A DNA stretch of 64,000 bases from an uncultured virus (IMG/VR IMGVR_UViG_3300010051_000510) (lineage: Duplodnaviria > Heunggongvirae > Uroviricota > Caudoviricetes): IMG/VR virus record IMGVR_UViG_3300010051_000510; one strand, 5' to 3'. Position 1 is the first letter of the stretch. Each line of letters opens with the position of its first letter. Made by a program: the position numbers and the translations under genes. Shown piece after piece: positions 1 through 62,186 of the stretch. Below the pieces are notes generated by a model, which had not been told where the DNA came from, did no database searches, and saw only the letters and a list, made by a program, of their open reading frames with translations.

Positions 1-1218
1 TCAGGTATGCCCGTCGCGAGCAGGGTCGGCGAGCTGGTTCTCGACCATCTCCGCCTGCATCCAGTGCGCTTCGGTGCTCAGCAGCGCGTCGCGGAAGTCG
101 GAGGCGACGTACTTGCCGACGGCGCGGCGGAAGTCGCCGTAGCGGAAGCTGTCGGCGGTCCGGACCACGTAGCCTTCCGCGGGCACATCCGCGAAAGCCG
201 ACGGGAACGGGTACAGGCCGCGGATCTTCTCCTCATCCCAAGGGCCGCGGTAGATCACCGGCACGGTCGGCAGCCCAAGCAGTGCCGACCACTCTTCCAC
301 CTCGCTCCACGCCAGCGCTTCGTTGCGTTCGTCGAAGATGGCGTGCACCAGCACGAACCCGGGCAGGCGGTCGTAGGCGACGTGATGGCGGGCGGTGAGG
401 TTCTCGCAGACCAGCCTCCATCCCTCCGGGATGTCGTAGCGGATCGTCGACCACAGCTGCTTGGCGCGGTTGCGGGACGGATGATGGCCGCTGTCGATGC
501 TGCGCGCGTGCATCATGTCGCGGCTGAACGTAAGCGACTCACCGTCGAGTTTCTCGGACACGACGATCTCCTTGCCCTCGAAGAACGAGATGTCCGTGAG
601 GACTTTGTCGTCGTTGGTGGCGCCGGGGCTCCACGGCAGATGGAAGGTGCGCGCCTGCTTGTAGGATGGCACGTACAGGCCGAGCTGATCGGCGTCGCGC
701 AGCACCTTCTGCACCGGCTCCTCGAAGAACAGCTCGCCGCGATAGCGACGGCCGTCGCGCATGACCTCGTCACCCCACTTGGTCAGCTCGACGTCCTGTT
801 CGAGATGGTCGGGAAGCACCGTGTCGGAGATCCCGGCCGCTTCGCGCAGCTGGGCGGGGGAGATGAGGGTCATCTCCGCCTGCATGTGACAGGACGTGCG
901 ACCGTCGGGATGCGGCTGATCGCACACCGCCGCGCCGTTGGACAGCACGTACCCACCGGGCCGCGGATCCTCCGTCCCGAACAGGCGGCGTTCCATCAGA
1001 TGATGGGCGTCCAGGCCGACCTGGCCGGCGGGCCGCCGGCAGACCACGCAGCGGTAGCCGTCGCGGGCGAAGACGGCTGCGCGGAACTCGTCGCGGCTGA
1101 GAACCAGGTCCCGAGCCGCAGCAGCGTCGCGCAGCGCCAGGCGGGCCCGATCGCTCAGCGGTTCGGGTTGCGGCATCGCGGCAGCGCCAGCGCAGTTGGG
1201 GTCGTCGCCTTTACCCAT
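1..1218 (-). CDS. HNH domain + RNA ligase (nucleotidyltransferase) fusion, with N-terminal MGKGDDPNC peptide
   Basis: N-half VFARDGYRCVVC..DAHHLMER..NGAAVC..CH (HNH). C-half RTFHLPWSPGATNDDK, EKLDGE (motif I Lys), EGYVVR, KYV. Start moved to ATG 1218, 7 nt after TACGAT. Confidence 0.85.
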   Translation of the reverse strand: MGKGDDPNCAGAAAMPQPEPLSDRARLALRDAAAARDLVLSRDEFRAAVFARDGYRCVVCRRPAGQVGLDAHHLMERRLFGTEDPRPGGYVLSNGAAVCDQPHPDGRTSCHMQAEMTLISPAQLREAAGISDTVLPDHLEQDVELTKWGDEVMRDGRRYRGELFFEEPVQKVLRDADQLGLYVPSYKQARTFHLPWSPGATNDDKVLTDISFFEGKEIVVSEKLDGESLTFSRDMMHARSIDSGHHPSRNRAKQLWSTIRYDIPEGWRLVCENLTARHHVAYDRLPGFVLVHAIFDERNEALAWSEVEEWSALLGLPTVPVIYRGPWDEEKIRGLYPFPSAFADVPAEGYVVRTADSFRYGDFRRAVGKYVASDFRDALLSTEAHWMQAEMVENQLADPARDGHT

Positions 1219-1281
1219 CGCCTCCATCGTATCCTCGATCACCCGTGCCGGCGAGCGCGCACATACCGATAAGGTGCATGC

Positions 1282-1565
1282 ATGGCCCGCGGCGTGCGCC
1301 TTGAACGCAGACGGCTGTCCTGGAGTGTTGCCGGAACGCCCTAATCGCTGACGCGCGTCCATGGCCGCTGGACGATCGCAGTGAGCCAGCGGCGCAGCGC
1401 GGACGGTCGCTCGGAGATCCGCGGGCACCGCCGCCCCAGCCGTCCCGGCGTCCGGTGGACGGTCCATGACATGCGCGGCGCCGCTTGTGACAGGCCCCTC
1501 TCAGGATGCAACACCCGGCGCAGGCGCGGCAGGTCATCACCCGCTACGAGAACGACCGCTCCTAA
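1282..1565 (+). pseudogene. Decayed copy of dispersed paralog family A
   Basis: TAAGGT-6nt-ATG 1282. Reads MARGVRLERRRLSWSVAGTP*SLTRVHGRWTIA..SADGR with in-frame TAA at 1342-1344. Resembles the N-terminus and the DGRW block of 2267-3633, but the central part is missing. Confidence 0.5.
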
Positions 1566-1580
1566 GGACAGCTCAGAGGC

Positions 1581-2099
1581 TCAGAACTTGCTGGCGCTGA
1601 AGCGTACGGTGCTGGGATGGCAGCGCGTGACGACATGAGTGCCGTGGTTGTAGCCCCAGGTCGCCCACTTGATCGCCAGCGTGCCGTTGAGCCGGGTCGG
1701 GGAGGTGAACCGGCCGCGGACCTTCCACGCGGCGATGATCCGCAGCTTCGGATCGGGCCACGTGCTCTTACCGGACCCCGAGAAGCTGCCATCTGGGCGG
1801 ATGGTCAGCAGGCGGTCAGGTTCCATCATCCCGGCCATCGTCGCGCCGATCTGCCCCTTGGTGCACTGGCGAGGGCTGGCCCAAAAACTGATTCGCATGT
1901 TCAACGAGCCGTCCGGCTCGATGCTGAACCCGATGGTCTGCGGCTTCTCGAACTGCAACTTGCCGGAGAACATCGTGTACGGGGCGGGGATCGCAGCGGA
2001 AGCGCCGGATGGGTGCGCGGCCATCACACCGACGACGACCAGAGAAGTGACGCAGATCAGAGCCGCCGCAACGAGGCGGTGTGGAAGAGCAGAGCGCAC
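1581..2099 (-). CDS. Secreted hypothetical protein
   Basis: Hydrophobic signal-like N-terminus ending ASA-A. TACGTT-6nt-GTG. Confidence 0.7.
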   Translation of the reverse strand: MRSALPHRLVAAALICVTSLVVVGVMAAHPSGASAAIPAPYTMFSGKLQFEKPQTIGFSIEPDGSLNMRISFWASPRQCTKGQIGATMAGMMEPDRLLTIRPDGSFSGSGKSTWPDPKLRIIAAWKVRGRFTSPTRLNGTLAIKWATWGYNHGTHVVTRCHPSTVRFSASKF

Positions 2100-2266
2100 A
2101 GACTCAACGTATCAGTCCCCCTGACGGCTTTGGGCCGGCGACCCACGTACGGACCAACGTCTGACCAATGCGGCAGACCATGGTTGGTCGTGTCCGGACG
2201 CACCGGGTGAGCCTGACCGCCGTCGTCAAGGTGCTGGCACCTGTCGCGTCACGCGTATGTTCAACG

Positions 2267-2722
2267 ATGCCCGAGCTGCGTCGCGTCACCGGAGGATGGC
2301 AGATCGAAGGGACCCCGCTGATGATGACCAGCAGCTATCACGGCTGGGCGATCTGCTGTCATACGAGCGTCTTCGTCAGCCGACTGGGCGACATTGACAT
2401 GTTCAGCGCATGGTTGGAACGCAACGGCTTCGCGGACGCCCGGTTTCGCATCCGCGATGACGCTGTCCGCGCAGCCCGAGCGGCCATGGCCGTCGACCCG
2501 CTTGCAACTGACGAGCGGAGCATGCTGGTGCGCTGCGGCGCCGGGGAGTACCGCACCGAGGACGGGCGGTGGCGAGTGCGCCGGTCCGCCGCGTTCAACC
2601 GATGGGAGATCCTCACCTCGGATCCCGGTCAGCCGGATGAGAAGGCATCGGTCGCCAGGACGCTGCATGAGGCGACGCTGATCATCCCGGCGCTGCGCCG
2701 GCACCGGGCGTCCGGCTCGTAG
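2267..2722 (+). CDS. Paralog family A protein
   Basis: MPELRRVTGGWQIEGTPL..FRIRDDAVRAARAAMAVDPL..GEYRTEDGRWRVRR..TLHEA. TATGTT-5nt-ATG. Confidence 0.8.
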   Translation: MPELRRVTGGWQIEGTPLMMTSSYHGWAICCHTSVFVSRLGDIDMFSAWLERNGFADARFRIRDDAVRAARAAMAVDPLATDERSMLVRCGAGEYRTEDGRWRVRRSAAFNRWEILTSDPGQPDEKASVARTLHEATLIIPALRRHRASGS

Positions 2723-2731
2723 GTTCACTCT

Positions 2732-3187
2732 GTGGGCCGGATCCGACGTATCACTGGCGGCTGGAAGATCGACGGGTCCCCGCTGGACGTGCATCGCAGC
2801 AACGGCGGCTGGGTGATCGACGTCGACCTCAACGAGGTCTTCTGCGGAGCCGGCGACGAGACACTGACCTGGAACGAACGCAATCAGCTGCAAGGCGTGT
2901 TGTTCGACACTCGCGCGCAGGCGGTGCGCGCCGCCGAGGCCGCATTGGCCGTCGACCCGCTCGCTGGCATGCGAGCCCAGAAGCTGATCCGCATGTCCGC
3001 CGGCCGGCATCGAAGCGAGGATGGCCGCTGGCTGATGCTCCGCGAACGCTCCGGCTGGGCCGTCTACGACACCCACCAGGAACGGTCCGGCGATCGCCGC
3101 CGGGCGGTTGTCGAATCGCTGTATGAGGCGGCGACTCTGATCGCCAGCACGCGGTTCGCTTCCCCGCCGGCCGCCGCCGGATCGTAG
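2732..3187 (+). CDS. Paralog family A protein
   Basis: GGWKIDGSPL..FDTRAQAVRAAEAALAVDPL..GRHRSEDGRW..SLYEA. TAGGTT-6nt-GTG. Confidence 0.8.
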   Translation: MGRIRRITGGWKIDGSPLDVHRSNGGWVIDVDLNEVFCGAGDETLTWNERNQLQGVLFDTRAQAVRAAEAALAVDPLAGMRAQKLIRMSAGRHRSEDGRWLMLRERSGWAVYDTHQERSGDRRRAVVESLYEAATLIASTRFASPPAAAGS

Positions 3188-3195
3188 GTTCAGCG

Positions 3196-3633
3196 GTGGC
3201 GCAGCTGCACAAGACGACCGGCGAATGGAAGATGGACGGGGCGCCCCTGGGCATCTACCGCAACGGCAGAGCGTGGATCCTCGGCGCGGACCTCAGCGAG
3301 GTGATGCGAGATCTCAATCGGATCGACGAGCTGACCGACTGGCTGAAACGCAACGCGCTCTACGCCGTGGAGTTCCGCAGCCGGCGGGAGGCGCTGCGGG
3401 CCGCCCAAGCCGCCCTGTCGGTCGATCCGCTCGCTGCGATCACACCAGCGAGACTGGTCAGAGCCAGAGCCGGGGAGTACCACACCCCCGACGGCTGCTG
3501 GCTGGTGCGGCGACGCGGTAAGTGTTGGGAGATCATCGCGGTCTCCCCGCAGCCGGGGATGAGCGCGCCGTTGTCCGGGGGATACGAGACGTTGCATGAG
3601 GCGGCGTTGATGATCGCCGCCTCCGAAAGCTGA
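3196..3633 (+). CDS. Paralog family A protein
   Basis: GEWKMDGAPL..FRSRREALRAAQAALSVDPL..GEYHTPDGCWLVRR..TLHEA. TAGGTT-5nt-GTG. Confidence 0.8.
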   Translation: MAQLHKTTGEWKMDGAPLGIYRNGRAWILGADLSEVMRDLNRIDELTDWLKRNALYAVEFRSRREALRAAQAALSVDPLAAITPARLVRARAGEYHTPDGCWLVRRRGKCWEIIAVSPQPGMSAPLSGGYETLHEAALMIAASES

Positions 3634-4664: not shown

Positions 4665-6467
4665 TCAGTCCAGGACGAACACGGGCCCGTGGGTGCGCCA
4701 CCACGGGTAGGTGCCGGGCGCCATCACGTAGCAGTGCTCGCGGGCGGTTTTCAGCTCCTGCTCGTAGGCGCCGTCGGTGATGATCATCACGGGCGCGTCG
4801 CGGGGGAGATCGTCGAGGGTGTCCAGCAGGTCCAGACCAGGCTGCAGAGTGGTGCCGCCGCGGCCGTGCACTTCGACGCGGCCTGTGAGGGCTTCGACTT
4901 CCAGGTAGCCGCGGTCGTAGGGGCGGGCGTCGCAGTCGATGAGCCGGACCGCCTGGACGTCATGAGCGACGCCGTAGGAGACAATCGCGCCGATCGCCCG
5001 GGACAGATCGTCGGCGGCCATGCTGGCGCTGGTGTCCAGCAGCACGCTGAACACCCGGCTGGGCTTCTCCCCGGGGTTGTCGCGGCGGCCGGGACGGACG
5101 ATGTCAGGGGTGGAGGATTGGCGTCGGCTGGCCCGCGCGAACGACCGCTGCGGCACCAGCGGCGGGAACATCGCGTCGAACCATTCCGCCAGCTGGGCGT
5201 CCCACGGGACGGGGTCTGCGGCGATCATCTCGATCTCCTCGCGCATCCCGGCTGGCAGATCCCCGCGGCCGCGCTGATGATGCAGCTCCAGGCCGTTGCG
5301 CAGCGCGTGGCGGACCCAGTCCTCCACGGTGGGATCCAGACCGCCGGCGCTGTCGCCCATGTCGAGGATGTCGCCGAGCTTCCCGCGCAGGGTGATCAGC
5401 TTGCGGGCCCGGCGGACGTCGGCGGCCAGGCGCTGGTAGATCTCCTCGGCGGACAGGTCGTTGTACTCGGGCATCAGCACCATCCCGATGTCCGGGGCAT
5501 GCCCGACCCGTATCTCCAACAGCCACTGGTTGATCTTGTGATCGGTGGCGAGGTTCCAGATGAGCGGGTCGCGGCCCTGGCGACGCTGGGCGTGCAGCAT
5601 CGCCACGTGCAGGACCTCGTGGGCGATGACGAACCGCAGCTCCTCCTCGTCCAGGCCGGCGCGCGGGTTGATGTAGATGATCCGCTTTGCCGTGTTGACG
5701 GCGGCGACCGCGATGTCCAATCGCCGGCACTCCTGCTCGCTTTCGATCAGCTTGAACCCGGCGGCGAGACTGGACAGCAGCGGGAAGTTCGCCATGAACC
5801 ACGCCAGCGTCAGCCGCGCCTGGCTCCTGGGGCCCTGATCATGCCAGCCTGCGGCGGAGACCTGATCGATCGCGTCGGCGGCATGCTCGCGCATCCCCTC
5901 GGCCAGCAGCCGCTGCCAGTCAGCCTGGCTCATCTCGCGGGTGCGCAACCCGCCGAGCCGGCGTTTGCCTGTGGCGACGAGATCCCCGCCTCCCATCTCC
6001 TGATAGCGGGCGAGGGCGGGCAGGCCGCTCAGCTGCTTGTGATCGGCCATCAGAAGGCGGCGGGGCGTGTCCTGGGGGAGGTGGTAGCCGGCGGGGATCC
6101 AGCGGCGATCCTGCTCGCCCAGCAGTTGGCGCAGCATCCCTTGGATCTGCACGTCAGCGGCGAGATTCCAGGCCAGCGGGTCCGCGTCGGGCGGGATCAG
6201 ATGATGCCCGTAGCCGACATGCAGCAGGGCATGCGCCAGCACGTAGCGCCAGTCGTCGACGGAGCCGCGGCGTTTGTTGTCCAAGCGGATGTTCCCGTCA
6301 GCGCCGACCTCCGTCCAGCGGCCCGTCTGCAGCACGCCGCCGGGGACAGGCCGGACGCGATAGGCGACACGGGCGAGGATCGGGTGCTCGCGCACCTGCT
6401 CCCAGGCGATCCGCCATGGCGGAGGCGGTGGCGGCTGCGTCTTCTTGCGGGAGGCGCTCTTAGCCAA
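4665..6467 (-). CDS. VWA-like domain / putative metallopeptidase (DUF2201-like), partner of MoxR ATPase
   Basis: HEVLH (HExxH) plus a degenerate N-terminal copy HALLH. C-terminal LDTSASM MIDAS, GRGGT, ITDG. Confidence 0.85.
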   Translation of the reverse strand: MAKSASRKKTQPPPPPPWRIAWEQVREHPILARVAYRVRPVPGGVLQTGRWTEVGADGNIRLDNKRRGSVDDWRYVLAHALLHVGYGHHLIPPDADPLAWNLAADVQIQGMLRQLLGEQDRRWIPAGYHLPQDTPRRLLMADHKQLSGLPALARYQEMGGGDLVATGKRRLGGLRTREMSQADWQRLLAEGMREHAADAIDQVSAAGWHDQGPRSQARLTLAWFMANFPLLSSLAAGFKLIESEQECRRLDIAVAAVNTAKRIIYINPRAGLDEEELRFVIAHEVLHVAMLHAQRRQGRDPLIWNLATDHKINQWLLEIRVGHAPDIGMVLMPEYNDLSAEEIYQRLAADVRRARKLITLRGKLGDILDMGDSAGGLDPTVEDWVRHALRNGLELHHQRGRGDLPAGMREEIEMIAADPVPWDAQLAEWFDAMFPPLVPQRSFARASRRQSSTPDIVRPGRRDNPGEKPSRVFSVLLDTSASMAADDLSRAIGAIVSYGVAHDVQAVRLIDCDARPYDRGYLEVEALTGRVEVHGRGGTTLQPGLDLLDTLDDLPRDAPVMIITDGAYEQELKTAREHCYVMAPGTYPWWRTHGPVFVLD

Positions 6468-6482
6468 CGATCCCCGAGCGTG

Positions 6483-6923
6483 CTAGGCCGCCGCGGCGAG
6501 CGGGTCGGGGACGCCCAGCTCCGCGTACAGCTCCTGGCGGCACTCATCCATGAGCTGATGATCCTCGACGGGGATCAGCTTCATCTCGGCGAGGTACAGA
6601 TCGCGGATCCTGTCAGCCTGCTCATGCTTGCCCTGGCCGGCCAGGAACCCTTCCAGATCCATCAGGCTGCCGGCGATCTCCACGCGCTTGTTGCGAGCCG
6701 CGAACCCTTCCGGCTGGTAGCCGGCCAGCTCGCGCAGACGCGTGAGATGCGCGTAGGCGTCGATCGTGTTCTGGACGGTGTCGTTGAGCTTGATGCGATC
6801 CGCAGCCAGCAGACGCTGGGCGGTTCTGCCGGGCAGGAACCGGGCGGTCTCCACGACGGCGCTCTCGGCGGCGGGAACAGCGAAGCGCAGCGCGGCGAGG
6901 TCCTGATCGGTCAGCGAGGCCAT
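6483..6923 (-). CDS. Helical hypothetical protein, tandem paralog (family B)
   Basis: Clearly similar to 6944-7384 (LRFAVPA..RVEIAGSL..LEGFL..RQELYAELGVPDPLA). TAGGTT-6nt-ATG. Confidence 0.8.
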   Translation of the reverse strand: MASLTDQDLAALRFAVPAAESAVVETARFLPGRTAQRLLAADRIKLNDTVQNTIDAYAHLTRLRELAGYQPEGFAARNKRVEIAGSLMDLEGFLAGQGKHEQADRIRDLYLAEMKLIPVEDHQLMDECRQELYAELGVPDPLAAAA

Positions 6924-6943
6924 GACGTGAACCTATCCTGGGC

Positions 6944-7384
6944 CTAGGCGGCGGCGCCGGCCAGCGGGTCGGGGATGTTCAACTCCGCGTACAGCTCCTG
7001 GCGCGCCTCGACGAGGTAGTGGCGGCTGTCCTCGGGAACGAAGGTCAGCTCACGCTGGTAGAGGCGGCGGACCTCGCCGGCGCGGTCGGTCTCGCCGCGG
7101 GCGATGAGGAACCCTTCCAGCTCGATGAGGTTCCCGGCGATCTCGATGCGCTTGAAGTTGAACCCGTCGCTGGGGACGGGCGCGGCCAGCTCCCGCAGCG
7201 CGGTGAGGTGAGCGTATGCGTCGAGGACCTCCTGGACGACTTCGGCGGCCTGCAGCAGCTCCTGAGCGAGGAGACGCTTCCCGCGGTTCGACGGCAGGAA
7301 CTTCGTGGTCTCGGCGACGCGCTGTTCGACGGCGGGCACGGCGTAGCGCAGCGCTTCGAGCTGCATCTCGGTCAGGGATGGCAT
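6944..7384 (-). CDS. Helical hypothetical protein, tandem paralog (family B)
   Basis: LRYAVPA..RIEIAGNL..LEGFL..RQELYAELNIPDPLA. TAAGTT-6nt-ATG. Confidence 0.8.
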   Translation of the reverse strand: MPSLTEMQLEALRYAVPAVEQRVAETTKFLPSNRGKRLLAQELLQAAEVVQEVLDAYAHLTALRELAAPVPSDGFNFKRIEIAGNLIELEGFLIARGETDRAGEVRRLYQRELTFVPEDSRHYLVEARQELYAELNIPDPLAGAAA

Positions 7385-7651
7385 GACAGCAACTTATCAG
7401 CGGCGTCGCAACCAGCGGCGGCGACCGGCGCCTGGATCGGCTGGTTGAGGAGGTCGGCGGTCAGCGCGTGAAGGTCCATGGCGTAGGCGGCCTCGATCGC
7501 ACGCTCGATTCGGGCGGGGGCTCGTCCTCGGGGAGGTATTCGCGCTGGCAGGCGTCGATCAGCCGCTACCGGACGAAACTGGAGCTGTTGCGCCTCGCTG
7601 GATGCAGCGCCCGTAGCGCGGGAACCGCCGCTTCCTGGGTCTGTCCAGCGC

Positions 7652-8098
7652 TCATGCCGGACGGGAACCTGTCAGCTGGCAACGACGGGACGGGACCCGA
7701 AGCGCTGCTCGTAGAGGTTCAGCGCCTGGTTGAGCGAGCGCTGATGGCTCTCCCGTGGCGTAGTCGTGGTCTGACGGGCTGGTGATCGCGTCGACCTCGG
7801 TCGTGTGCAGCGCGAAGCAGCGAACGGTCTGATCGAGATCGCCGGCGGTCAGAAACGCGCAACCCAGACCGCTGAACTCGTCAGCGAGCTGCAGGTGCGC
7901 CCAGTACAGGTTGCGTTTCGCGCGCGGCGCCGCCTGCGCGAACTCGGCCTGCAACGTCTCGTAGTCCAGGAGCGCTTGCTCGAACCGTTCCAGGCGGCGG
8001 GCGGCGGTCGTGGCGTAGCGAGCGTCAGCCAACTGATCCAGCAGGCGCTGCTGGCGATCATGCAGATCGTCGTAGTCGATCTTCGGCTGCTTGGCCAT
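7652..8098 (-). CDS. Hypothetical protein, possible distant family B member (3' end possibly frameshifted)
   Basis: TACGTT-6nt-ATG. Helical and of similar length. An alternative frame near 7750 reads ESHQRSLNQALNLYEQRFG. Confidence 0.55.
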   Translation of the reverse strand: MAKQPKIDYDDLHDRQQRLLDQLADARYATTAARRLERFEQALLDYETLQAEFAQAAPRAKRNLYWAHLQLADEFSGLGCAFLTAGDLDQTVRCFALHTTEVDAITSPSDHDYATGEPSALAQPGAEPLRAALRVPSRRCQLTGSRPA

Positions 8099-8393
8099 GA
8101 CAGCAACGTATCAGCAATCGAGGGCCGGCTTCGCAGCAGCGGAGAACGCTTATCGCCCGCGGCTGAACAGCATGATGAAGACAGCCACGAGCACGACAAG
8201 CGCCCAATCAGCGCTCATGACCTGCTCCGGTCGGTTGCGCTGTCGGGGCGAGTGAGGACGTCCTCGACCCACTCGGGCGTCTCGCCCACCATCTCTGCGA
8301 GCGTCTCGACGCTGAGGTTCGGGCACTTCCCATGCCAGGCGCGGACAAAGCCCTCGGGGCCGCCTCGCACCGCGATCATCGTGGCTGAGGCCC

Positions 8394-8723
8394 TCACCGT
8401 CGCGGCTCCCGGTTGATGAGAGCATCCACGCCAGGCCACTCGACGCCATAACGCTCAGCGCGACGAACGCATTCCGCGCACCGGATCCGCAGATCGGACT
8501 CGTGCTCGACCGGCCGCTCATACCAGCCGATGCGCTTGCACAGCGCGCCGCCTGAGCCGACCTGCAGCGTGCCGCCGCGACCTTGCTTGGCGGTCAGTGT
8601 CACCGTCTCGGGCGCATGCAGGTGGATGGCTCCTGTCTGCCGGCCGCGCGAGCCTCCCCAGACCTGCGAGCGCGGAACGTGGTAACGCACCTGCCACTCG
8701 CCTGCGGAACGATCGGCGCTCAC
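8394..8723 (-). CDS. Hypothetical protein with Cys motifs
   Basis: GTG overlaps the upstream stop (GTGA). Contains ALCKR..RCAECVRR. Confidence 0.55.
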   Translation of the reverse strand: MSADRSAGEWQVRYHVPRSQVWGGSRGRQTGAIHLHAPETVTLTAKQGRGGTLQVGSGGALCKRIGWYERPVEHESDLRIRCAECVRRAERYGVEWPGVDALINREPRR

Positions 8724-8887
8724 CAGAGGACCGCCGCCAAGACGAACGCGGCGCAGACGAGAACCCCTGCGGCGAACGTTGCGACGATCAAGAACAGCCC
8801 GATGGCCAGGTGCAGCCACACCGGGTCGGAGTCGATCGACTCATAGGACTGCGAGCCAGACTGTCCGGTCCCCGCGATCGCGCTCAT
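8720..8887 (-). CDS. Small membrane protein (55 aa, not in ORF track)
   Basis: GCTGA-TAGGTT-6nt-ATG. MSAIAGTGQSGSQSYESIDSDPVWLHLAIGLFLIVATFAAGVLVCAAFVLAAVLW. Confidence 0.6.
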   Translation of the reverse strand: MSAIAGTGQSGSQSYESIDSDPVWLHLAIGLFLIVATFAAGVLVCAAFVLAAVLW

Positions 8888-8946
8888 GGCAGCAACCTAT
8901 CAGCGCGACCCGGGACGGTTCGCCATAACGGCGCAGGCGCGGGAGA

Positions 8947-9174
8947 TCACGTTCCGTCTCCATGCTGGGGGCTGAGCGCGGAGAGGACGCTTCGCGCCCA
9001 GCCGGTGTCCCCGCCAAGCCAGCCGGCCGCGCGCTCGACCATCTCTTCAGTGATCGTGACCGTACCCGTGGTCAGAGCATCGCACGAATGGCACTCGACC
9101 TCGGCGACGATGTTCATGGTGTCGTTGGCCACAGGGCGGGAGCCGGCCTGGCCCTTCTCGGTGATAGCTGGCAT
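8947..9174 (-). CDS. Small hypothetical protein
   Basis: GCTGA-TACCGT-6nt-ATG. CxxC. Confidence 0.5.
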   Translation of the reverse strand: MPAITEKGQAGSRPVANDTMNIVAEVECHSCDALTTGTVTITEEMVERAAGWLGGDTGWARSVLSALSPQHGDGT

Positions 9175-9965
9175 GACAGCACGGTATCAGCGGCAGATGG
9201 CCGGATGCTGAACTGTGACAGCTGCGGCTGCTTAGCCGGGCTGTTGGACGTCCGGGCGCTGGTCGCCGGTCTTTGCGCGCAGGACGGCGCGAGCAAGAGC
9301 GCGGTCCCGAGCGGTCGGTGAAGGCGGATGCCAGCCGGCGGGCGGAGCTTTCGCCTCTATGCGCTGCGAGAAGCTCTCCGCTGCCTTGATGATGTAAGCC
9401 CCGCGCAGGCGGATCTTCACGGAGCGCCCTTTCGGCTCATGACGCGCTCGCTGCGGCATCCCGTCACGCAGAGACGCCCCGGGGGGCAGCCCCTGTCCTC
9501 TTCGGCGATCGCGTTCATGGCAGAACGTTATCAGCAACGTTGCCGCTGATGCGTCGAAAACCTTCGGGCGCGAGGACCCGCGCGGCGGTCTGACGGATGC
9601 GGCGTTGGAGATCCTCGCGGGCCTCGTAACGTGCGGTCATCGTCGCGCACTCTCCGGCAGCACGCAGCGCCGCTTCGCGGGTGGTGTGACGGGACGCCTG
9701 GCCGCCGGCGGCGCGCGTCCATGCTGCGCCGAGCAGGCACGGTCGCCGATCCGCGCAAGGATCAGCCGGCGTGGCCGGCGTGGTGAGAAGCGTCCGGTGA
9801 TCCTCCAGTGCGGCCTGGTAGGCCAGATCGCGGTCAAGGATGCCTCGGGTGGTTTCGGCGGCGCTCAGCGTCGCGAGCATCCGGTCGAGCTGGTCGGCCC
9901 GGATGCGCTGCCGGCGAGTCAGCGAGGGGCGAGTTCGGTGAGCAGCGTCGTGTGGTGTCGGCGGT

Positions 9966-11051
9966 TCAAGCGCGGATCTGCGGCTTGTGGCGGGCGACGA
10001 TGTTGGGCAGCTCGTCGCCGATGGCGATCAGGAACCAGTCGGGGATGCTGTCACCGTTCTCGTTGGCGACGATCACCATCTGCGCGAGGTCCGGGGCGAT
10101 GTCCGCCAGGGAGCGCATCAGCTCCAGCGCGCGCGCCTGGAACTTCTTGGTGTTCGCGCTCAGCTTCTCCGGGCTGGCCGGCAACTCCTTGATGATCTGA
10201 TCGCGGAAGGCGAGCGTCAGATAGTGCAGCAGCTCCCGTTCGGAAGGATCCTGCGGCCAGGTCGCGGTGCCCTTCATGATGTGATTCAGCATGAACAGCC
10301 GGTCACTGTTGCGAAACCACACCTCGAACTGCTGAGCGTCGGAAGGGGACAGCACCGACCGGGCGAGCAGGCCGACACGCTGCGCGTTCAGATGATCGTC
10401 GCCCCAAGTCAGCAGCATCCGCGACAGCAGATCCCAGGCGCGCGGGGTGCTGAACGTGCGCTCCTCCTTCGGCGGCTTGCGCCACAGCTGCGCGGGATGC
10501 TGGCGAACGTACTCGTGGACGGCCGGATGAACGCCCGCCTGCACCGCCCATTCCAGCCAGGCCCCTACGCTGACCTTCAACGTCACGTGCACCATCCGGT
10601 TGATCAGCGCGCTGCTCATCTGCCGGACGATCGCGTTGTCGGAGGCGCGGTTGCCAGCGGCGACGACGATCGAATCCTTCGGCAGGCGGTACTCGCCCAG
10701 GCGCCGCTCATGGATCAGCGAGTAGAAGGCCTTCTGGACGTCCGGGGATGAGGCGTTCAGCTCGTCGAGGAACAGCACGTACGGCTCGTCGCGAGCGATG
10801 TTGCGCGGCGGGCAGAACACGGACACATGCCCTTCGATGCGCGGCACCCCGATGATGTCCTCCGGCGCCAGCTGGCTTCCGAGCAGGCTCACGCAATCCA
10901 TGCCCAGCGACTCAGCGAACTGCTCGACGATCGCCGTCTTGCCGATGCCGGGCGCGCCATGCAACATCACCGGTGCGACAACGGCGGTGTTCAGCAGGAA
11001 CTCGTGCAGTTCCCCTGTGGTGATCTCCGGAGCGCTCTCCATCTCTTCCAT
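9966..11051 (-). CDS. MoxR-like AAA+ ATPase
   Basis: Walker A GAPGIGKT, Walker B LFLDELN, AAGN sensor, ALINR arginine finger, TPRAW. Confidence 0.9.
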   Translation of the reverse strand: MEEMESAPEITTGELHEFLLNTAVVAPVMLHGAPGIGKTAIVEQFAESLGMDCVSLLGSQLAPEDIIGVPRIEGHVSVFCPPRNIARDEPYVLFLDELNASSPDVQKAFYSLIHERRLGEYRLPKDSIVVAAGNRASDNAIVRQMSSALINRMVHVTLKVSVGAWLEWAVQAGVHPAVHEYVRQHPAQLWRKPPKEERTFSTPRAWDLLSRMLLTWGDDHLNAQRVGLLARSVLSPSDAQQFEVWFRNSDRLFMLNHIMKGTATWPQDPSERELLHYLTLAFRDQIIKELPASPEKLSANTKKFQARALELMRSLADIAPDLAQMVIVANENGDSIPDWFLIAIGDELPNIVARHKPQIRA

Positions 11052-18500: not shown

Positions 18501-18553
18501 GCCGCTTCAGCGTGTCTGCGAGGGCCGCCGATGCGAGCGAGGTACGTTCAGTG

Positions 18554-19357
18554 ATGAGCGTGGATCCTTTCGGCCGCTTCGTGCGCACCCCCGCTGTCCG
18601 CCGCCGCTACGAGCAGACCATCGACGGGCTCGTACAGCTGCTCGCCGACTCCGAGGCGGTCACCGTCCTGTCCGGCGCGGGGATCAGCACCGCCTCCGGC
18701 TTGCAGGACTTCCGCAGCAAAGGCGGCCTGTGGGAGAACACCGACCCGATGCAGGAATGCTCGCTGTCGGCGTTCCGTCGCGACCCCGCCCGCTTCTGGG
18801 CCTTCTACACCGCCCGTCTCACCCTGCACGAGGACATCAAGCCCAACCCTGCGCATGAGGCGATCGTGCAGCTGGAACGCATGGGCAAGGTCAAATGGGT
18901 GCTGACGCAGAACATCGACGGGCTGCACCAGCAGGCGGGCAGCACCAGGGTCGTGGAGCTGCACGGCAGCCCCGCCACCGTCTCCTGCCCAGCCTGCGGC
19001 CAGAAGGTGACCTGGGATGAGGCGATGAGCATGCGCGACGACGCCGGAGTGGTGCGCTGCGAGCACGGGCATCCGATGAAACCTGACATCGTCCTGTTCG
19101 AGGAGCGCCTGCCCGACCAGCCGTTCCAGCGCGCGCATCTGGCGTTGGCGTCCAGCGATCTGCTGCTGTGCGTCGGAAGCAGCCTGGTCGTTCATCCGGT
19201 CGCCGGCCTGCCCGCGCTACTGATCGCCGGCGGCGGGGACGTCGCGATCCTCACCGGGTCAAGCACCCCGCAGGACCAGCTCGCCCAGGTCAAACTGACC
19301 GACCCGCCGTTGCAGGAGCTGCTGCCCGAAGCGGTCCGGCGACTCAACCTGCTCTGA
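18554..19357 (+). CDS. cobB: Sir2 family NAD-dependent deacylase
   Basis: GAGISTASGLQDFR, TQNIDGLH, ELHG, CxxC, KPDIVLFEE, GSSL. Start set by TACGTT-5nt-ATG. Confidence 0.93.
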   Translation: MSVDPFGRFVRTPAVRRRYEQTIDGLVQLLADSEAVTVLSGAGISTASGLQDFRSKGGLWENTDPMQECSLSAFRRDPARFWAFYTARLTLHEDIKPNPAHEAIVQLERMGKVKWVLTQNIDGLHQQAGSTRVVELHGSPATVSCPACGQKVTWDEAMSMRDDAGVVRCEHGHPMKPDIVLFEERLPDQPFQRAHLALASSDLLLCVGSSLVVHPVAGLPALLIAGGGDVAILTGSSTPQDQLAQVKLTDPPLQELLPEAVRRLNLL

Positions 19358-21601: not shown

Positions 21602-21895
21602 ATGCCCGTCGTCCTAGACCCCGTGAAGATCGAGAAGCCGAACACCGCAGACAGCGGGCCCGGCAACTCGTTCATGGCCGAGATCCACTGCTTCAACCAG
21701 GACGACGTGTCGATGGACGCGGTCGTCATCATCTTCTGCCAGGTGCTGCCCGGCATGACCGTCGAGAAGGCCGTCCAGAAGATGCTCGACGTACACAACA
21801 ACGGCGTCGGCACGATCTTCCACGGCGCCCGCGAGGTCTGCGAGCTGTACAGCGAGCAGATGAACGGCATGGGCCTGGACACCAAGGTCGTCTGA
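21602..21895 (+). CDS. clpS: ClpS-like Clp protease adaptor
   Basis: CFNQDDVSMDAVV..MTVEKAVQKMLDVHNNGVG..VCELYSEQM..GL. GCTGA-TAAGTT-6nt-ATG. Confidence 0.8.
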   Translation: MPVVLDPVKIEKPNTADSGPGNSFMAEIHCFNQDDVSMDAVVIIFCQVLPGMTVEKAVQKMLDVHNNGVGTIFHGAREVCELYSEQMNGMGLDTKVV

Positions 21896-33356: not shown

Positions 33357-33524
33357 AACGCGGCGGCTCAACCAGCCAGGCCTCAGGCCGCGAGGCGGCG
33401 ATCGTCAGCGTGTTCCAGCCACTGCTGGGCGGTCATCGGATCCCCGCGCACCGCCGGACTGAACGCGCAGGAGCGCTCCGTCCGCGCGCTCGTCCGAGCA
33501 AGGCCGGCGGCGGTACGTTCAACG

Positions 33525-34085
33525 GTGACCGACCTCTCCCGCCGCGAGCTGACCGACTTGCTGACCGTGCACGGCTGCCCGCTGAGCCGATGGGGGCGGG
33601 GGCCGGCGAAGACGCTGGAGCATCTGCTGCGTGAGCTGGCCGACGGCGAATGCCGCCTGACGGTGCAGGACGGCACGCTTTACCGGGACGTGCTCGGCGC
33701 GATGCTGCGGGTCCGTCACCGCGACCTGACGTTGATCGAGGATCATCAGCGGTTCAGCGATGGGCGGCCAGACCCGGTCCGCCGGCGCGATCTGCAAGCG
33801 TCCGTGGGGGAGAAGCTGCAACGCGGCGAGGAGCCCGACGCGGGAGCGCGCCGCGCGCTCGCTGAGGAGCTGGGCGTCACCGAGCCGGTCGAGCTGCACG
33901 GCAAGCATCTGACCCGGAAGTTCGCCGAGTCCGAGAGCTACCCGGGGCTGATGACCCGCTTTGAGACATGGACCTATGAGGTGGAGCTGCCCGACAGCTG
34001 CTTTGACCCTGACGGCTACCGGGAAGTGCAGGCGGACAAGAGGACCGTGTGGGTGTGGGCGCCGACCGCCAGGGCGCCGTTCTAG
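33525..34085 (+). CDS. NUDIX-like protein
   Basis: VGEKLQRGEEPDAGARRALAEELGV, a variant Nudix box. TACGTT-5nt-GTG. Confidence 0.65.
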   Translation: MTDLSRRELTDLLTVHGCPLSRWGRGPAKTLEHLLRELADGECRLTVQDGTLYRDVLGAMLRVRHRDLTLIEDHQRFSDGRPDPVRRRDLQASVGEKLQRGEEPDAGARRALAEELGVTEPVELHGKHLTRKFAESESYPGLMTRFETWTYEVELPDSCFDPDGYREVQADKRTVWVWAPTARAPF

Positions 34086-39144: not shown

Positions 39145-40082
39145 TGCCCGCGTCACCAACCGCGCTTTGACAGGACGTCTTTAGCGCCGTAGCCGCCTGC
39201 CCCGGCACGCCGGGGCTGCTGTCCGAAGCCGAGGAGTTGTGCGAACTTCGCCTGCTCGCTTCGGACGACCCGCAACTCCTCATCGAGCTGGACCAGGCCG
39301 AACGTGACCTGCTGACCCGCTGGGAGCAGAACTTGCTGAGCGGCGACCCCGCGTGGGAGGGAGACGCGATGTTGTGCGTGCGCGCCGGCGCCGGGGGCAC
39401 CGACGCTGAGGACTTCGCGCTCACCCTCATCTCCATGTACGAAAGCTACGCCCGCCGGCGACGGTGGAAGTTGGAAGAGCTGGAGCTGACCGCCGGCCGC
39501 GACAGCGGGGTGCGGTCCTGGACGGTCCGGGTGCGCGGGTACGGCGCCTACGGGCTGCTGGCGGGCGAGCACGGCTCCCATCGGGTCGCCCATCACTCCC
39601 GGTTCGGGGCTCGTGGGAAACGGCAGACCAGTCACGCCAGCGTCGAAGTGCTGCCCTGGCGCGATGAGCAGGCCGGTGTGATCGACGACACGGACGTGCG
39701 ACTGGACACCTACGCCGGCTCCTCCAAGGGCGGCCAGCACGCCAACAAGTCCCACACCAACGTGCGAGCGGTGCATGTGCCGTCGGGGATCAGCGCGGTC
39801 AGTCAAGGCCGGTCGTTGGAGCAGAATCGCCGCAACGCGCTCGCCGTCCTCCAGGCGCGGGTGATGGCGGCCGGCAAGGCGAAGGTGGCGGCGGGCCGCA
39901 GCGAGCAGACTGTCAGTGCCGGATTCGGCGGGCGGGTGCGCTCCTACGTGTTCACCCCGTATCAGATCGTCAGCGACGAGCGGGCGGGCGTGAAGACCCG
40001 CAAGCTGGCCAGCATCCTGGACGGGGATCTCGATCAGCTGACCAGGCCGCTGCTGGCCTGGCGGGCCAGGCAGGCCGCGTAA
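39122..40082 (+). CDS. prfB: Class I peptide chain release factor, RF2-like, expressed via a predicted +1 frameshift at CTT-TAG (about 319 aa)
   Basis: RAGAGGTDAEDF, GEHGSHR..SRF..RQTS, GGQHANK, RSYVFTPYQ.V.D.R, LDGDLD. ORF0 39122-39184 (20 aa, TAG) joins the +1 frame 39183-40082. Confidence 0.85.
39172..39185 (+). promoter_or_regulatory. prfB-type programmed +1 frameshift cassette with amber stop
   Basis: AGGA (SD-like) - CGT - CTT - TAG - C. Same geometry as canonical SD-NNN-CTT-TGA-C. Confidence 0.75.
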
Positions 40083-45781: not shown

Positions 45782-45838
45782 GTGAGCACGTTATCCGCTG
45801 CGGTTGAGGTTCGAGCAGGCCGGGTGCATGATCAGAAC

Positions 45839-46771
45839 GTGGGCAAAGGCGACGACCCCAACAGCTGCCCGGGCGGCGCGATCGCGATGATCGCCCCGGA
45901 CGCCCAACCAGCCGCTGCTTCGCCGTGCCGGCGAGCCACCCAACCTCACCCACAACAGCAGCTGCTGGACACCATGCAGCAGCTGGCCGACCATCCGCTG
46001 GCGGAGCGGGAGCCGGCGCCCGACGAGCAGGCGTTCCGCGACGCGCATCTGTTCAGTTTCGGCGGACTCGGCGTGATCCCCGACCCCGAAGAGTTCCCCC
46101 ACGGCCACCAGTTCTACGGGGCGATCGTCGACGAGCGCGGCGACAAGGTCGGCTACACCGAAAGCGTGCTGACCTGGGGGCCCGACAACCGGCTCGTCGC
46201 AGCCGGGGAGCGGCTGCGGATCCGGGAGGAGACCGGCCGTCAAGGAGGCGGGTTCGGCCGCGCCTACCAGCAGCATCTGCGCGAGCGCTACCTGAACATG
46301 GGCATCCACCGCAAGCGGATCTGCGCGATCGAGCATGGCGCCTACGTGTGGGCGACCCCCGACACCATCTTCGACCCGGCCCAGCCGGTCGCACCTCGCC
46401 TGGACGACGACGATCCGCGCGTCAGGGACATCCAGTGGCGAGGGGCCGCCTACGCCAGCCAACTGTGGCACGAGTTCGACTGGCGGCTGGACCGCGCCGA
46501 ACGGGACGGACTCGCGCCCGAAGGCACCTACGCCGCGGTCAAACGCCGTTTTGCCACCCGCAAGGACCTCGAACACCCGACCCGCTGGAAGACGAAAGCG
46601 GCAACGCCGTGGGAGATTCTGCAGATCGGCCGCGACCAGACGTTCCTGGACGGCGACGGCCGCGAAAGCTGGCCGGGCAAGTACTTCCTGGTCGCCGAGA
46701 TGAGCCGCCTCTACGAGGACGGCTGCGCCGGGAGAGGCATGGTCTGGCAGGGCGTGCGGCTGCTCGGGTGA
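45839..46771 (+). CDS. GNAT-like protein with N-terminal MGKGDDPNSC peptide
   Basis: RQGGGFG acetyl-CoA-loop-like motif and GAYVWA. CATGAT-6nt-GTG. Confidence 0.6.
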   Translation: MGKGDDPNSCPGGAIAMIAPDAQPAAASPCRRATQPHPQQQLLDTMQQLADHPLAEREPAPDEQAFRDAHLFSFGGLGVIPDPEEFPHGHQFYGAIVDERGDKVGYTESVLTWGPDNRLVAAGERLRIREETGRQGGGFGRAYQQHLRERYLNMGIHRKRICAIEHGAYVWATPDTIFDPAQPVAPRLDDDDPRVRDIQWRGAAYASQLWHEFDWRLDRAERDGLAPEGTYAAVKRRFATRKDLEHPTRWKTKAATPWEILQIGRDQTFLDGDGRESWPGKYFLVAEMSRLYEDGCAGRGMVWQGVRLLG

Positions 46772-58811: not shown

Positions 58812-58815
58812 CGCC

Positions 58816-60116: not shown

Positions 60117-60334
60117 GCGAGCTGCGGCTGGTCCGCACCGGCTGCTGGCAGACCAGCGACTGTCATTTCCTGATCGCCCGCCGAAACGACGCGTGGCGGA
60201 TCGTCGCTCGCACCTAGCAGGCTTCCCGCGCGCTGCGCGACGCGGACCTGGCCGGCAAGCCGTTTCAGACCCGCCGTCAAGCGCACGCGACCGCTGACGC
60301 GATCACCCCCCGCGACGTAGGTTCACGACCATGA
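60113..60334 (+). pseudogene. Family A copy with a single in-frame TAG
   Basis: VSELRLVRTGCWQTSDCHFLIARRNDAWRIVART*QASRALRDADLAGKPFQTRRQA, with TAG at 60215-60217. Confidence 0.65.
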
Positions 60335-60981
60335 ACGAGGAGATCTTCGACGAGCTGACCGAGCAGGAGCTGCTGCTCGGGGTGATCGCCGCCGCCCGGC
60401 GCCTGCGCAACCCCAAGACCCGCTGGGTCAAAGGCGTGACCCGCCAGGAACGCTCCACCATCACGAAAGCCGCCGGCGCCGCGATCGCGAAGGCCGGCGC
60501 GCTGATCGCCCGAGACGCCGACGGCGAGGACATCTCCGATCAGGCGCTCACGCTCGCCCGCAGCGTCCTGGCGCTCACCACCGCCATGCACGCCCATGAG
60601 CAGGTCGCCGTTGAGGATCTGGCGAGACGGGTATGCGAGACCATCGACCGGGCCTCCGCGAAACCGACGGACCCGACGTCCGACACCGCCGTCCCGATGA
60701 TCCCCGTGACCCCGTCGATCCCCAAGGTCCCAACCATGCCGCTGCGTCCCTCGGTGGCGCCGCTGGCTCCCAGCGCACCGCCGAAGACGACGGGTGTCGG
60801 CGGCCCGTGGATCGGCGGGNNGACGCCGCGCTGGCCGCGGCCCAGCGGGCCGATCTGGCGCGATCACGGCACGATCTTCTCCTCGGCCGCCGCGCGCACC
60901 GGAACCGCCTACAACGCCTCCGGGGCAGCTTCGCTGGCCATGGTGTGCGCGCAGGAGCTGCTGGCGACATCCGCTCGGTAG
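60331..60981 (+). CDS. Hypothetical protein (contains NN at 60820-60821)
   Basis: TAGGTT-7nt-ATG. The frame past the ambiguous bases is uncertain. Confidence 0.6.
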   Translation: MNEEIFDELTEQELLLGVIAAARRLRNPKTRWVKGVTRQERSTITKAAGAAIAKAGALIARDADGEDISDQALTLARSVLALTTAMHAHEQVAVEDLARRVCETIDRASAKPTDPTSDTAVPMIPVTPSIPKVPTMPLRPSVAPLAPSAPPKTTGVGGPWIGGXTPRWPRPSGPIWRDHGTIFSSAAARTGTAYNASGAASLAMVCAQELLATSAR

Positions 60982-61053
60982 AGCCGATCGCGCCGGCTGC
61001 CCAGGCCACCGCATAAGTGGCAGTCAGCACAACCCCGGGTTGATACTTGGCCC

Positions 61054-61461
61054 ATGATGAGAGTGGCCGCCATCCACACCGTCGCCGCCATGGCGATCAT
61101 GAGCCTGCTGGCGGGCTGCGGCGGCGATGATCTCGGCATCGGCCGGGCCATGCACGACGCCAAGGAGAGCACGGCGAACGTGATGATCAGCGCGCACGGC
61201 AAACGCCGCCATCTCGTCTGCTCTGCCGACGTGCGCGCCGGGCGCACCGCCGCCGCGTGCGACGACCTGCTGCGTATCGCCGCGCTGCCCGAAGGCCGGC
61301 TGGACCGCCAGAACGCCGCCTGCTCCAAAGCGCCCGCCGCAAAGCGGATGACGGTCTCCGGCAACGTTCAAGGACACCATCGGGAGATCACGCTGGCCGC
61401 GGGCTGCGCGTTGGGACGGTCGGCCACGCAGCTTCTCGCGTATATCGGCGCCGGCCGCTAG
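61054..61461 (+). CDS. Lipoprotein, subtilisin-inhibitor (SSI)-like
   Basis: LAGC lipobox. LVC..AAAC..L..C..VSG..GC. Confidence 0.6.
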   Translation: MMRVAAIHTVAAMAIMSLLAGCGGDDLGIGRAMHDAKESTANVMISAHGKRRHLVCSADVRAGRTAAACDDLLRIAALPEGRLDRQNAACSKAPAAKRMTVSGNVQGHHREITLAAGCALGRSATQLLAYIGAGR

Positions 61462-61493
61462 ATCATTCGCGATTGCGCCCTTACGGTCAACGT

Positions 61494-62186
61494 ATGGGCA
61501 AGGGCAACGATCCGAACTGTCAGGCATCCGGATCCGCTGCGGCGATCGGATCGCCGACCGCGGACCTTCCGTCGATGCGCGAGGCGGAGATCGACGAGCT
61601 GTGGGCGGCGACCGCCGCACCTCTGAACAAGGCGATCAACGCGCTCATCGAGACGCGCAAGCAGCTGCGCAAGTACCGCCGAGCCGGCGCGGGAGCCGGG
61701 TTCCTGGAACGTCGCGAGACGGAGCTGGAAGCCAAGATCGAGGAGCTGAAGCCGGCCATGGAACCGTTCGAGGCCGAATGGGAACGCCGAGGCGGCTGGA
61801 CGCGCGCGTACCTGGTCATGAACGACGACGGGCACATTCACCGCGCCACCCACTGCTCCACGCTCCGCCCGACGACGATCGTCAGCTGGCTGCCTGAGCT
61901 GTCAGGCAAGTCGGAGGATGAGATCATCGACCACGCCGGCCACATGGCCTGCACGGTCTGCTACCCGGACGCGCCGACCCGCCCCTCCTTCCAGGCCAGC
62001 CTCAAGAAGGCCGAGGAGGAGAAGGCCAAGAAGAACGCCGGGCGCTGCCCCGGCTCCGGCATGCAAGGCGAAGGTGTCGACTGGACCAGGTACCGCCCCT
62101 ACGGCCGCTGCCCGCAATGCGGCGGCGCCTACGGCGTCTCCAGGAACGGGAAGCTGCGCCCGCACAAACCCGACAACGGCAAGTAG
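61494..62186 (+). CDS. Coiled-coil / zinc-binding protein with N-terminal MGKGNDPNC peptide
   Basis: TACGGT-6nt-ATG. GHIH..CSTL..CTVCYP, CPGSG..CPQC..H. Confidence 0.75.
   Translation: MGKGNDPNCQASGSAAAIGSPTADLPSMREAEIDELWAATAAPLNKAINALIETRKQLRKYRRAGAGAGFLERRETELEAKIEELKPAMEPFEAEWERRGGWTRAYLVMNDDGHIHRATHCSTLRPTTIVSWLPELSGKSEDEIIDHAGHMACTVCYPDAPTRPSFQASLKKAEEEKAKKNAGRCPGSGMQGEGVDWTRYRPYGRCPQCGGAYGVSRNGKLRPHKPDNGK

What the first reader, a model, noticed from the sequence alone, without database searches (positions are those of the whole stretch)
1..62186. Shared N-terminal peptide MGKG[DN]DPN(S)C on three unrelated proteins
Seen: the HNH-RNA ligase (start 1218, -) begins MGKGDDPNCAGAAAM, the GNAT-like protein (45839, +) begins MGKGDDPNSCPGGAIAM, and the zinc-binding protein (61494, +) begins MGKGNDPNCQASGSAAAI. 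In each the motif starts at the codon 6-7 nt after a -10-like box and is followed by an Ala/Pro-rich linker. The DNA differs at synonymous positions (GGT AAA / GGC AAA / GGC AAG; CCC/CCG; TGC/TGT), which points to selection on the peptide. Inference: a portable addressing tag (packaging into a particle, transfer into a recipient, or a processing/modification site) marking cargo of this element. I do not recognise it as a known signal.
Basis: partly seen in the sequence, partly recalled or inferred. Interest (0 to 1): 0.82.

Follow-up and report, generated by a model that had tools for sequence, protein, structure and literature searches.

The report
Shared N-terminal tag on cargo enzymes
Dozens of unrelated enzymes on a giant, undescribed mobile element of soil-type Actinobacteria all begin with the same eight-residue peptide, which most likely works as an address label that loads them for delivery into the next host cell.

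Summary
Confirmed and much larger than reported. The three window proteins start with MGKG[DN]DPN (one from a GTG codon) 6-7 nt after -10 boxes. A metagenome scan gave 38 more carriers in two related assemblies; the 32 in one fall into 26 protein families. Selection acts on the peptide: orthologs 48-53% identical keep it exactly; distant homologs lack it. It was not found at an N-terminus in 185,579 species genomes, IMG/VR or 401 genomes of the likely host order. Carriers are soluble RNA-repair, protein-modifying, anti-restriction and nuclease-like enzymes. The window's GNAT belongs to a family that sits in phage head modules in 6 of 7 contexts found, three times behind another short repeated peptide. 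Best reading: a loading tag like the T4 capsid-targeting sequence (0.42). However, no capsid gene was seen, and the element carries flagellar, chemotaxis, pilin and ParB genes like a megaplasmid, so cell-to-cell transfer, a cleavable leader or a degron remain open. This scan had not noted it before; no paper holds the string.

The parts
1192..1218 (-). Tag 1, codons for MGKGDDPNC
   Evidence: ortholog L051 has the same peptide with 2 silent changes in codons 2-8
1..1218 (-). Tagged Rnl2-type RNA ligase with an N-terminal HNH-like domain (405 aa, P0001); second Met at residue 15
   Evidence: matches to jumbo-phage homologs begin at residue 44-45
1226..1231 (-). -10-like box TACGAT, 7 nt before the start
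   Evidence: a leaderless transcript is inferred
45839..45868 (+). Tag 2, GTG start, codons for (M)GKGDDPNSC
   Evidence: ortholog L014
45839..46771 (+). Tagged GNAT-like protein (310 aa, P0002) of a family found in phage head modules; second Met at residue 17
45827..45832 (+). -10-like box CATGAT, 6 nt before the start
61494..61520 (+). Tag 3, codons for MGKGNDPNC
   Evidence: kept exactly in orthologs down to 48% identity
61494..62186 (+). Tagged Cys/His-rich protein (230 aa, P0003, phrog_2433), with untagged homologs on actinobacterial plasmids and phages
61482..61487 (+). -10-like box TACGGT, 6 nt before the start

Best explanation
The peptide is a loading tag. Each carrier is made from its own, mostly leaderless, transcript. 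After probable removal of Met1 (inferred), it exposes G-K-G-[DN]-D-P-N-(C) on a short Ala/Gly spacer. One element-encoded partner binds this near-invariant end and loads the protein into a particle, most likely a capsid-type head as with the T4 capsid-targeting sequence. The first-wave enzymes (RNA repair, acetylation, phosphorylation and their reversal, anti-restriction, nucleases, a sigma-like factor) then enter a new Solirubrobacterales host with the DNA. The tag may be cut off near the conserved Met at residues 11-22. Shown: the tag, its selection as a peptide, its N-terminal position, its restriction to this element family, the cargo types and the head-module context of one cargo family.
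For: 38 carriers in two related assemblies; 32 of them form 26 families. All four Gly codons and both codons for Lys, Asp and Asn are used. In 304 kb, all 38 stretches within 4 mismatches of the majority DNA keep the peptide. Of 19 P0003 homologs found by whole-protein search, 4 keep the tag exactly, 1 has a degenerate form, 1 is a fragment and 13 lack it; the four untagged ones aligned start near the Met that follows the tag. 0 of 38 carriers have a membrane- or signal-like hydrophobic stretch, against 34 of 202 untagged proteins (Fisher p 0.004). All 3 element paralogs of one GNAT-like family are tagged, and a profile built only from phage-side domains finds them at E 3e-12 to 1e-8 (next hit 0.023). 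Elsewhere this family sits in head modules in 6 of 7 contexts: fused behind minor-capsid domains (PF06152, PF25310), between MuF and the major capsid gene, or behind a different repeated peptide, KHxxGxHDQxxHG. Cargo types match the domains described as delivered with invading DNA (PMC5512222 passages) and the RNA-repair set of jumbo phages (PMC7824862 passages). T4 packs diverse internal proteins that share only a capsid-targeting sequence (PMC3012670 passages).
Against: No capsid, portal, terminase, tail or scaffold gene was found among 96 window proteins or the 150 largest of 202 untagged proteins of the relatives (Pfam; 47 of them also against PHROGs). No piece of the element was found in IMG/VR. 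Tagged contigs carry flagellar, chemotaxis, pilin, PBP and ParB genes, as the megaplasmid pS16 does. The head-module evidence concerns one cargo family, came from phage and plasmid collections only (cell genomes were not searched for it), two of the six contexts are near copies, and the seventh is a stand-alone plasmid gene. Two other carriers had no phage match. P0003 homologs are on 28 plasmid records. No carrier is recognisably structural.
Confidence: 0.42

Rival explanations
1. Transfer signal of a giant plasmid. The tag is read by a coupling protein or chaperone, and the enzymes are passed to a recipient cell through a conjugation or secretion channel, possibly one derived from the element's pilus or flagellar export genes.
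For: Plasmid-like gene content on tagged contigs: ParB, a type IV pilin array, CHAP, SLT and Rpf-like wall hydrolases, flagellar genes. One carrier is ArdC-like (phrog_7245); ArdC is described as transferred in conjugation. Conjugation systems move many proteins (PMC8406263 and PMC11288057, abstract starts only). The element was not found in IMG/VR.
Against: No VirB4, coupling protein or relaxase hit among the proteins scanned. Known transfer signals are not short invariant N-terminal peptides (recalled). The flagella- and pilin-bearing megaplasmid pS16 shows no comparable shared N-terminus.
Confidence: 0.22
2. Removable or modifiable leader that controls activity inside the producing cell. 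An element enzyme cuts near the second Met, or modifies Gly2, Lys3 or Cys9, and so switches potentially harmful enzymes on or off without any delivery.
For: Met at residues 11-22 in 28 of 38 carriers, against 35 of 202 untagged proteins; Ala precedes it in 15 of 28; no Shine-Dalgarno before it in 27 of 28. Orthologs keep Met or Ile at this column. Cys at residue 9-13 in 33 of 38. Several carriers are nuclease-like or modifying enzymes.
Against: A nine-residue disordered leader is unlikely to block 26 different folds. Untagged homologs of 5 tagged cargoes sit in pS16. The Met is equally explained as the old start codon. Cleavage is also compatible with the best explanation.
Confidence: 0.16
3. 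Private degradation signal. The tag makes early enzymes short-lived through the element's own ClpS-like adaptor and Clp ATPase.
For: The element encodes a ClpS-like protein (window 21602-21895, PF02617) and a Clp ATPase with Clp_N domains (L034).
Against: Gly is not a canonical ClpS N-degron and degrons are seldom this invariant (both recalled). It does not explain the link to head-module cargo.
Confidence: 0.12
4. Translation-start or DNA cassette. The sequence spread with a strong leaderless promoter, and the peptide is a by-product.
For: Tight link to -10 boxes.
Against: Mismatches to the majority DNA fall 99 at codon position 3, 18 at position 1 (GTG start, D/N) and 0 at position 2 (partly circular because anchors were chosen by peptide). 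Orthologs found without the pattern keep the peptide. About 40 untagged starts follow another -10 class without any tag (counted by eye).
Confidence: 0.04

Closest known systems
Phage T4 capsid-targeting sequence (CTS) of internal proteins IPI-IPIII
   Same: A short conserved N-terminal peptide shared by otherwise diverse counter-defence proteins (PMC3012670 passages).
   Different: T4 uses it on a few small proteins of a known virion; here it is on at least 26 families with a median length of 311 aa, and no capsid has been seen. The T4 sequence was not fetched or compared; I recall it as unrelated.
Phage P1 DarB N-terminal packaging signal
   Same: The N-terminal 30 residues suffice to package a reporter into a phage that also lives as a plasmid (PMC9024508 abstract and passages).
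   Different: The paper found no consensus among Dar N-termini, and 9 residues were not enough. Here seven positions are invariant.
MuF / minor-capsid effector fusions and polyvalent proteins
   Same: The same cargo classes (GNAT, zincin peptidase, kinase, nucleotidyltransferase, ArdC), delivered with DNA (PMC5512222 passages); the same GNAT-like family.
   Different: Those join effectors to a folded carrier domain or into one polypeptide. Here each enzyme is a separate, scattered gene with a nine-residue leader, and no MuF-type hit was found in any carrier.
KHxxGxHDQxxHG repeat before effector modules in phage head clusters (seen in L227, L229, L230)
   Same: A short repeated peptide ahead of unrelated effector domains, including the same GNAT-like family.
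   Different: Different sequence; internal and repeated in polyproteins; inside head operons. Its function is untested, and I did not search the literature for it.
Curtobacterium megaplasmids pS16 / pCPAA3 (for the element)
   Same: Dense small unknown genes, flagellar genes, ribonucleotide reductase, RtcB, CCA enzyme and P0003 homologs.
   Different: Only 18 of 326 element proteins match, there is no shared N-terminal tag, and the flagellar genes form one cluster instead of being scattered.

Membership tests
T4-type capsid-targeting sequence | Short conserved N-terminal peptide on unrelated soluble proteins | tested here: met
T4-type capsid-targeting sequence | The element encodes a head (capsid, scaffold, portal, prohead protease) | tested here: inconclusive
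   None among 96 window and 150 related proteins; under half of a probably 700 kb or larger element was seen
T4-type capsid-targeting sequence | The peptide is sufficient to package a foreign protein | not testable with these tools
   Needs particles and fusions
T4-type capsid-targeting sequence | Removed by the prohead protease (recalled) | not testable with these tools
   Only a suggestive x-x-A|M pattern, 15 of 28
T4-type capsid-targeting sequence | Sequence likeness to the T4 peptide | not tested
   T4 sequence not fetched; the tag profile found no real match among solved structures (best E 1.7)
MuF / minor-capsid effector fusions | A MuF, PF06152 or PF25310 carrier domain fused to the effector | tested here: not met
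   No such hit in the 38 carriers or the 3 window proteins
MuF / minor-capsid effector fusions | Effector domain of a head-associated family | tested here: met
   For the GNAT-like family only
Conjugative (type IV) protein co-transfer | The element encodes VirB4, a coupling protein and a relaxase | tested here: inconclusive
   None among the proteins scanned; element incomplete
Sec/Tat/lipoprotein signal peptide | Hydrophobic core before the cleavage site or lipobox Cys | tested here: not met
   0 of 38 carriers have a hydrophobic stretch
Split-intein C-terminal fragment | Asn followed by Cys, Ser or Thr in all members (recalled) | tested here: not met
   Residue 9 is Cys 28, Ser 3, Thr 1 and Ala, Gly, Leu, Met or Trp in 6 of 38; no intein hit on any carrier

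The most novel reading that the evidence does not exclude
The element is a giant (about 700 kb or more) Solirubrobacterales replicon with no capsid, carrying scattered flagellar, chemotaxis and pilin genes. It uses a private, invariant eight-residue label to ship a toolkit of more than 26 enzyme families into other cells through its own transfer or secretion machine. That would be a short linear address code for protein co-transfer of a kind not found in my searches.
Probability: 0.27. Interest if true: 0.92.

Novelty: new variant of a known kind. Interest (0 to 1): 0.8.

Why it matters
The tag lists which proteins a giant uncultured element treats as one set, so it marks a dozen or more proteins of unknown function as probable first-wave counter-defence or takeover factors. 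If it loads a particle, the element would be among the largest phage-like replicons and an odd one, with flagellar and chemotaxis genes. If it drives cell-to-cell transfer, it is a new kind of transfer signal. Either way, a nine-residue portable tag that accepts 90-820 aa cargo would be directly testable and useful for protein delivery. It also points to an undescribed class of giant elements in Solirubrobacterales that was not found in the GTDB or IMG/VR collections searched.

Tried and rejected
No whole genome is held for the window, and the metagenome loci could not be extended. Tag pattern in IMG/VR: 0. In 185,579 genomes: 2, both inside long unrelated frames; this pattern needed a Cys codon, which 31 of 38 carriers have at residue 9 or 10. 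Of 65 distinct metagenome matches, 27 were set aside: they lie in other organisms (GC 0.29-0.64), mostly inside long frames such as integrases or in short non-genic frames; two are followed by Cys but are internal. Tag profile against 1.84 billion representatives: 11 hits, 10 tagged proteins and 1 repeat artefact. Word-indexed tag search was crowded: 15 hits among 7,999 candidates. Searches for relatives of the element in genome and viral collections gave nothing or only distant untagged homologs. Promoter-motif scan of IMG/VR: 26 chance hits. Tag profile on 401 genomes of the likely host order: only weak hits up to 20 bits, none covering residues 1-3. Longer fused forms of the GNAT family: none among 8,000 candidates, weak evidence. 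ClpS-like protein plus tag in the complex predictor: no answer, not evidence either way. Single-sequence fold of P0002 was unusable (pLDDT 38). PADLOC: no meaningful hit in 16 carriers. No RNA holder listed. A -35 motif is only weakly enriched (18 of 38 against 26%). Split-intein, lipoprotein and DNA-cassette readings were rejected as above. Literature: MGKGDDPN in 0 papers (the N variant was not searched); one search gave 0; two searches listed nothing on such an element. Supplements were not read; those of PMC5512222 and PMC7824862 could mention the head-module GNAT family or its motif.
Full report
Observation. The three N-termini are in the window as described, each 6-7 nt after a -10-like box; the one at 45839 starts from GTG. 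Nothing else in the window resembles them, and chance expectation is about 3e-7 (post hoc pattern). Contigs of two public runs agree with the window at the second tag, and one of them at the third.

More carriers. The back-translated 8-codon pattern gave 70 rows in the metagenome collection, 65 distinct matches after removing duplicates. Thirty-eight lie in two assemblies: 32 on 23 contigs of one (Ga0180223 contigs, about 220 kb seen) and 6 on short contigs of another. The other 27 are in unrelated organisms, inside long frames or in short non-genic frames, and were set aside. Three contigs of the first assembly are 80-89% identical to the window and hold orthologs of all three window carriers. 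That the other contigs belong to the same replicon is inferred from shared tag, GC content and promoter motif. The 32 carriers form 26 families by BLAST at E 1e-4. Protein searches place tagged proteins on contigs of 191,110, 194,974 and 314,944 bp; P0003 and a tagged DHH protein share the first length. The window's contig probably has a fourth carrier, and the element is probably 700 kb or more (inferred).

Selection on the peptide. M-G-K-G-[DN]-D-P-N is invariant apart from D/N, while all four Gly codons and both Lys, Asp and Asn codons occur. This count is partly circular, so two other tests matter. First, in 304 kb all 38 stretches within 4 mismatches of the majority DNA keep the peptide and follow an ATG or GTG; non-peptide look-alikes appear only at 5-6 mismatches and are unrelated. 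Second, of 19 P0003 homologs found by whole-protein search, four keep MGKGNDPNC exactly at 94, 72, 53 and 48% identity while the spacer diverges, one (49%) reads MGKLTGQDC, one is a fragment and 13 lack it. The four untagged homologs aligned begin near the Met that follows the tag. RNA-ligase matches in jumbo phages begin at residue 44-45. The tag is therefore an add-on.

Anatomy. A -10-like box lies 5-7 nt before 24 of 38 starts, against 4.4% of 14,834 ATG/GTG codons and 48 of 194 roughly called untagged starts; a Shine-Dalgarno precedes 4 of 38. Leaderless translation is inferred. Cys stands at residue 9 in 28, at 10-13 in 5 and is missing in 5. An Ala/Gly-rich spacer follows, then a Met at residues 11-22 in 28 of 38 (35 of 202 untagged), preceded by Ala in 15 and by a Shine-Dalgarno in 1. 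This Met may be the old start or part of a cut site.

Range. No N-terminal match was found in IMG/VR or 185,579 species genomes with the Cys-requiring pattern, nor in 0 of 401 genomes of the order around the best host-like match with a looser pattern. A tag profile run over 1.84 billion representatives found 10 tagged proteins and one artefact at E 0.001.

Cargo. Family hits: Rnl2 ligase, RtcB, RlaP, CCA/poly(A) polymerase, two RecJ-like DHH proteins, a PolI-type exonuclease, two HAD hydrolases, a PP2C, a GNAT, an ArdC-like protein with a peptidase domain, a sigma-like factor and a Mrr_N protein. By eye only: three HExxH peptidases, two restriction-nuclease-like paralogs, a kinase-like and an ADP-ribosyltransferase-like protein. 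None of 38 has a hydrophobic stretch, against 34 of 202 untagged proteins. Replication, metabolism and motility proteins are untagged, as are second copies of RtcB and RNA ligase.

Link to phage heads. P0002 and two tagged paralogs form one family. Its only first viral match aligns along the domain (probability 95%, E 3e-8) and lies beside an XkdF-type head protease, behind the peptide KHxxGxHDQxxHG, which recurs before other effector modules there. Further members lie in polyproteins with that peptide downstream of portal and MuF genes (L229, and its near copy L230), behind a PF25310 domain between portal and capsid (L231, L232), behind PF06152 in Microbacterium phage Jera gp5, and between MuF and capsid genes in a Micromonospora replicon; one is a stand-alone plasmid gene annotated as GNAT. 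That is 6 of 7 contexts, from phage and plasmid collections only. A profile made from the six head-module domains recovers all three element paralogs. In this family the tag stands where a carrier domain or another short peptide stands elsewhere, which is the best evidence for a loading role.

The element. Tagged contigs also encode ribonucleotide reductase, helicases, three more sigma factors, a class II tRNA synthetase, a Clp ATPase, ParB, a penicillin-binding protein, wall hydrolases, pilins, FliM, FlgE/F/G, FlgK, FlgN and Che proteins. No tRNA was found in the window or 24 loci, and no ribosomal, capsid, terminase or VirB4 hit among the proteins scanned; 52 of 202 untagged proteins under about 125 aa were not scanned. 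It resembles the Curtobacterium megaplasmid pS16 in style, but shares only 18 of 326 proteins, and pS16 has no shared N-terminal tag. A related plasmid is reported to encode a distant terminase homolog (PMC8929003 passages). Phage, plasmid or hybrid is unresolved, and this is the main weakness of the best explanation.

Literature seen. Passages of PMC3012670 (T4 internal proteins share only a capsid-targeting sequence), PMC9024508 (P1 DarB signal, no consensus), PMC5512222, PMC7824862 and PMC8929003; listings or abstract starts only for PMC5576092, PMC8406263 and PMC11288057. No paper holds MGKGDDPN, and searches showed no description of such a tag or element.

Verdict. The tag is real, selected as a peptide, private to an undescribed giant element and placed on a coherent set of soluble conflict and repair enzymes. 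Interest 0.8.

Noticed in passing
window 20604, 25708, 27951, 29664, 35907, 43136, 50174, 57735, 58502, 59576, 1266 (+); 45797, 35028, 52549 (-); many related loci: A second, element-wide promoter-like class, CGGATAAnGTG followed about 6 nt later by a start codon: about 40 of 52 sites listed (counted by eye). It precedes untagged genes and only 1 of 38 tagged ones; it may serve one of the element's four sigma factors.
   Followed up: partly
L010, L013, L028, L062: Flagellar and chemotaxis genes (FliM, FlgE/F/G, FlgK, FlgN, CheA, CheW, CheR, MCP) scattered singly or in small groups among unknown genes, not in one cluster as in pS16.
   Followed up: partly
L062:3066-7275: Tandem array of at least five near-identical type IV pilin genes.
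   Followed up: no
L227, L229, L230: A repeated peptide KHxxGxHDQxxHG precedes unrelated effector modules in phage head clusters; it looks like a tag system of its own.
   Followed up: partly
window 21602-21895 (+): Divergent ClpS-like adaptor (PF02617, E 4e-9); the related assembly also has a Clp ATPase (L034).
   Followed up: partly
window 2267-3633 (+): Three tandem paralogs of about 150 aa with no family hit, conserved in L051.
   Followed up: no
window 4665-11051 (-): A DUF2201 peptidase/vWA-like gene and a MoxR-like AAA ATPase with two paralogous 146-aa genes between them.
   Followed up: no
window 18551-19357, 31085-31672, 32913-34085, 39237-40082: Untagged NAD- and translation-related genes: Sir2, NADAR, Macro, NUDIX and a peptide release factor.
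   Followed up: no
L020:10001-11209 and L066:4540-5868: Two tagged paralogs (28% identical) with a restriction-nuclease-like motif by eye; no family hit in Pfam, PHROG, NCBIfam or PADLOC.
   Followed up: partly
P0007 (44.6-kb contig): Variant leader MGKLTGQDC on a 49%-identical ortholog, hinting at a sister element with a different tag; its genome was not found.
   Followed up: partly
L041:9603-12884: Ribonucleotide reductase large subunit with a LAGLIDADG intein.
   Followed up: no
window 60820-60821: Two N bases; contigs of both runs show a 6-base insertion here.
   Followed up: no
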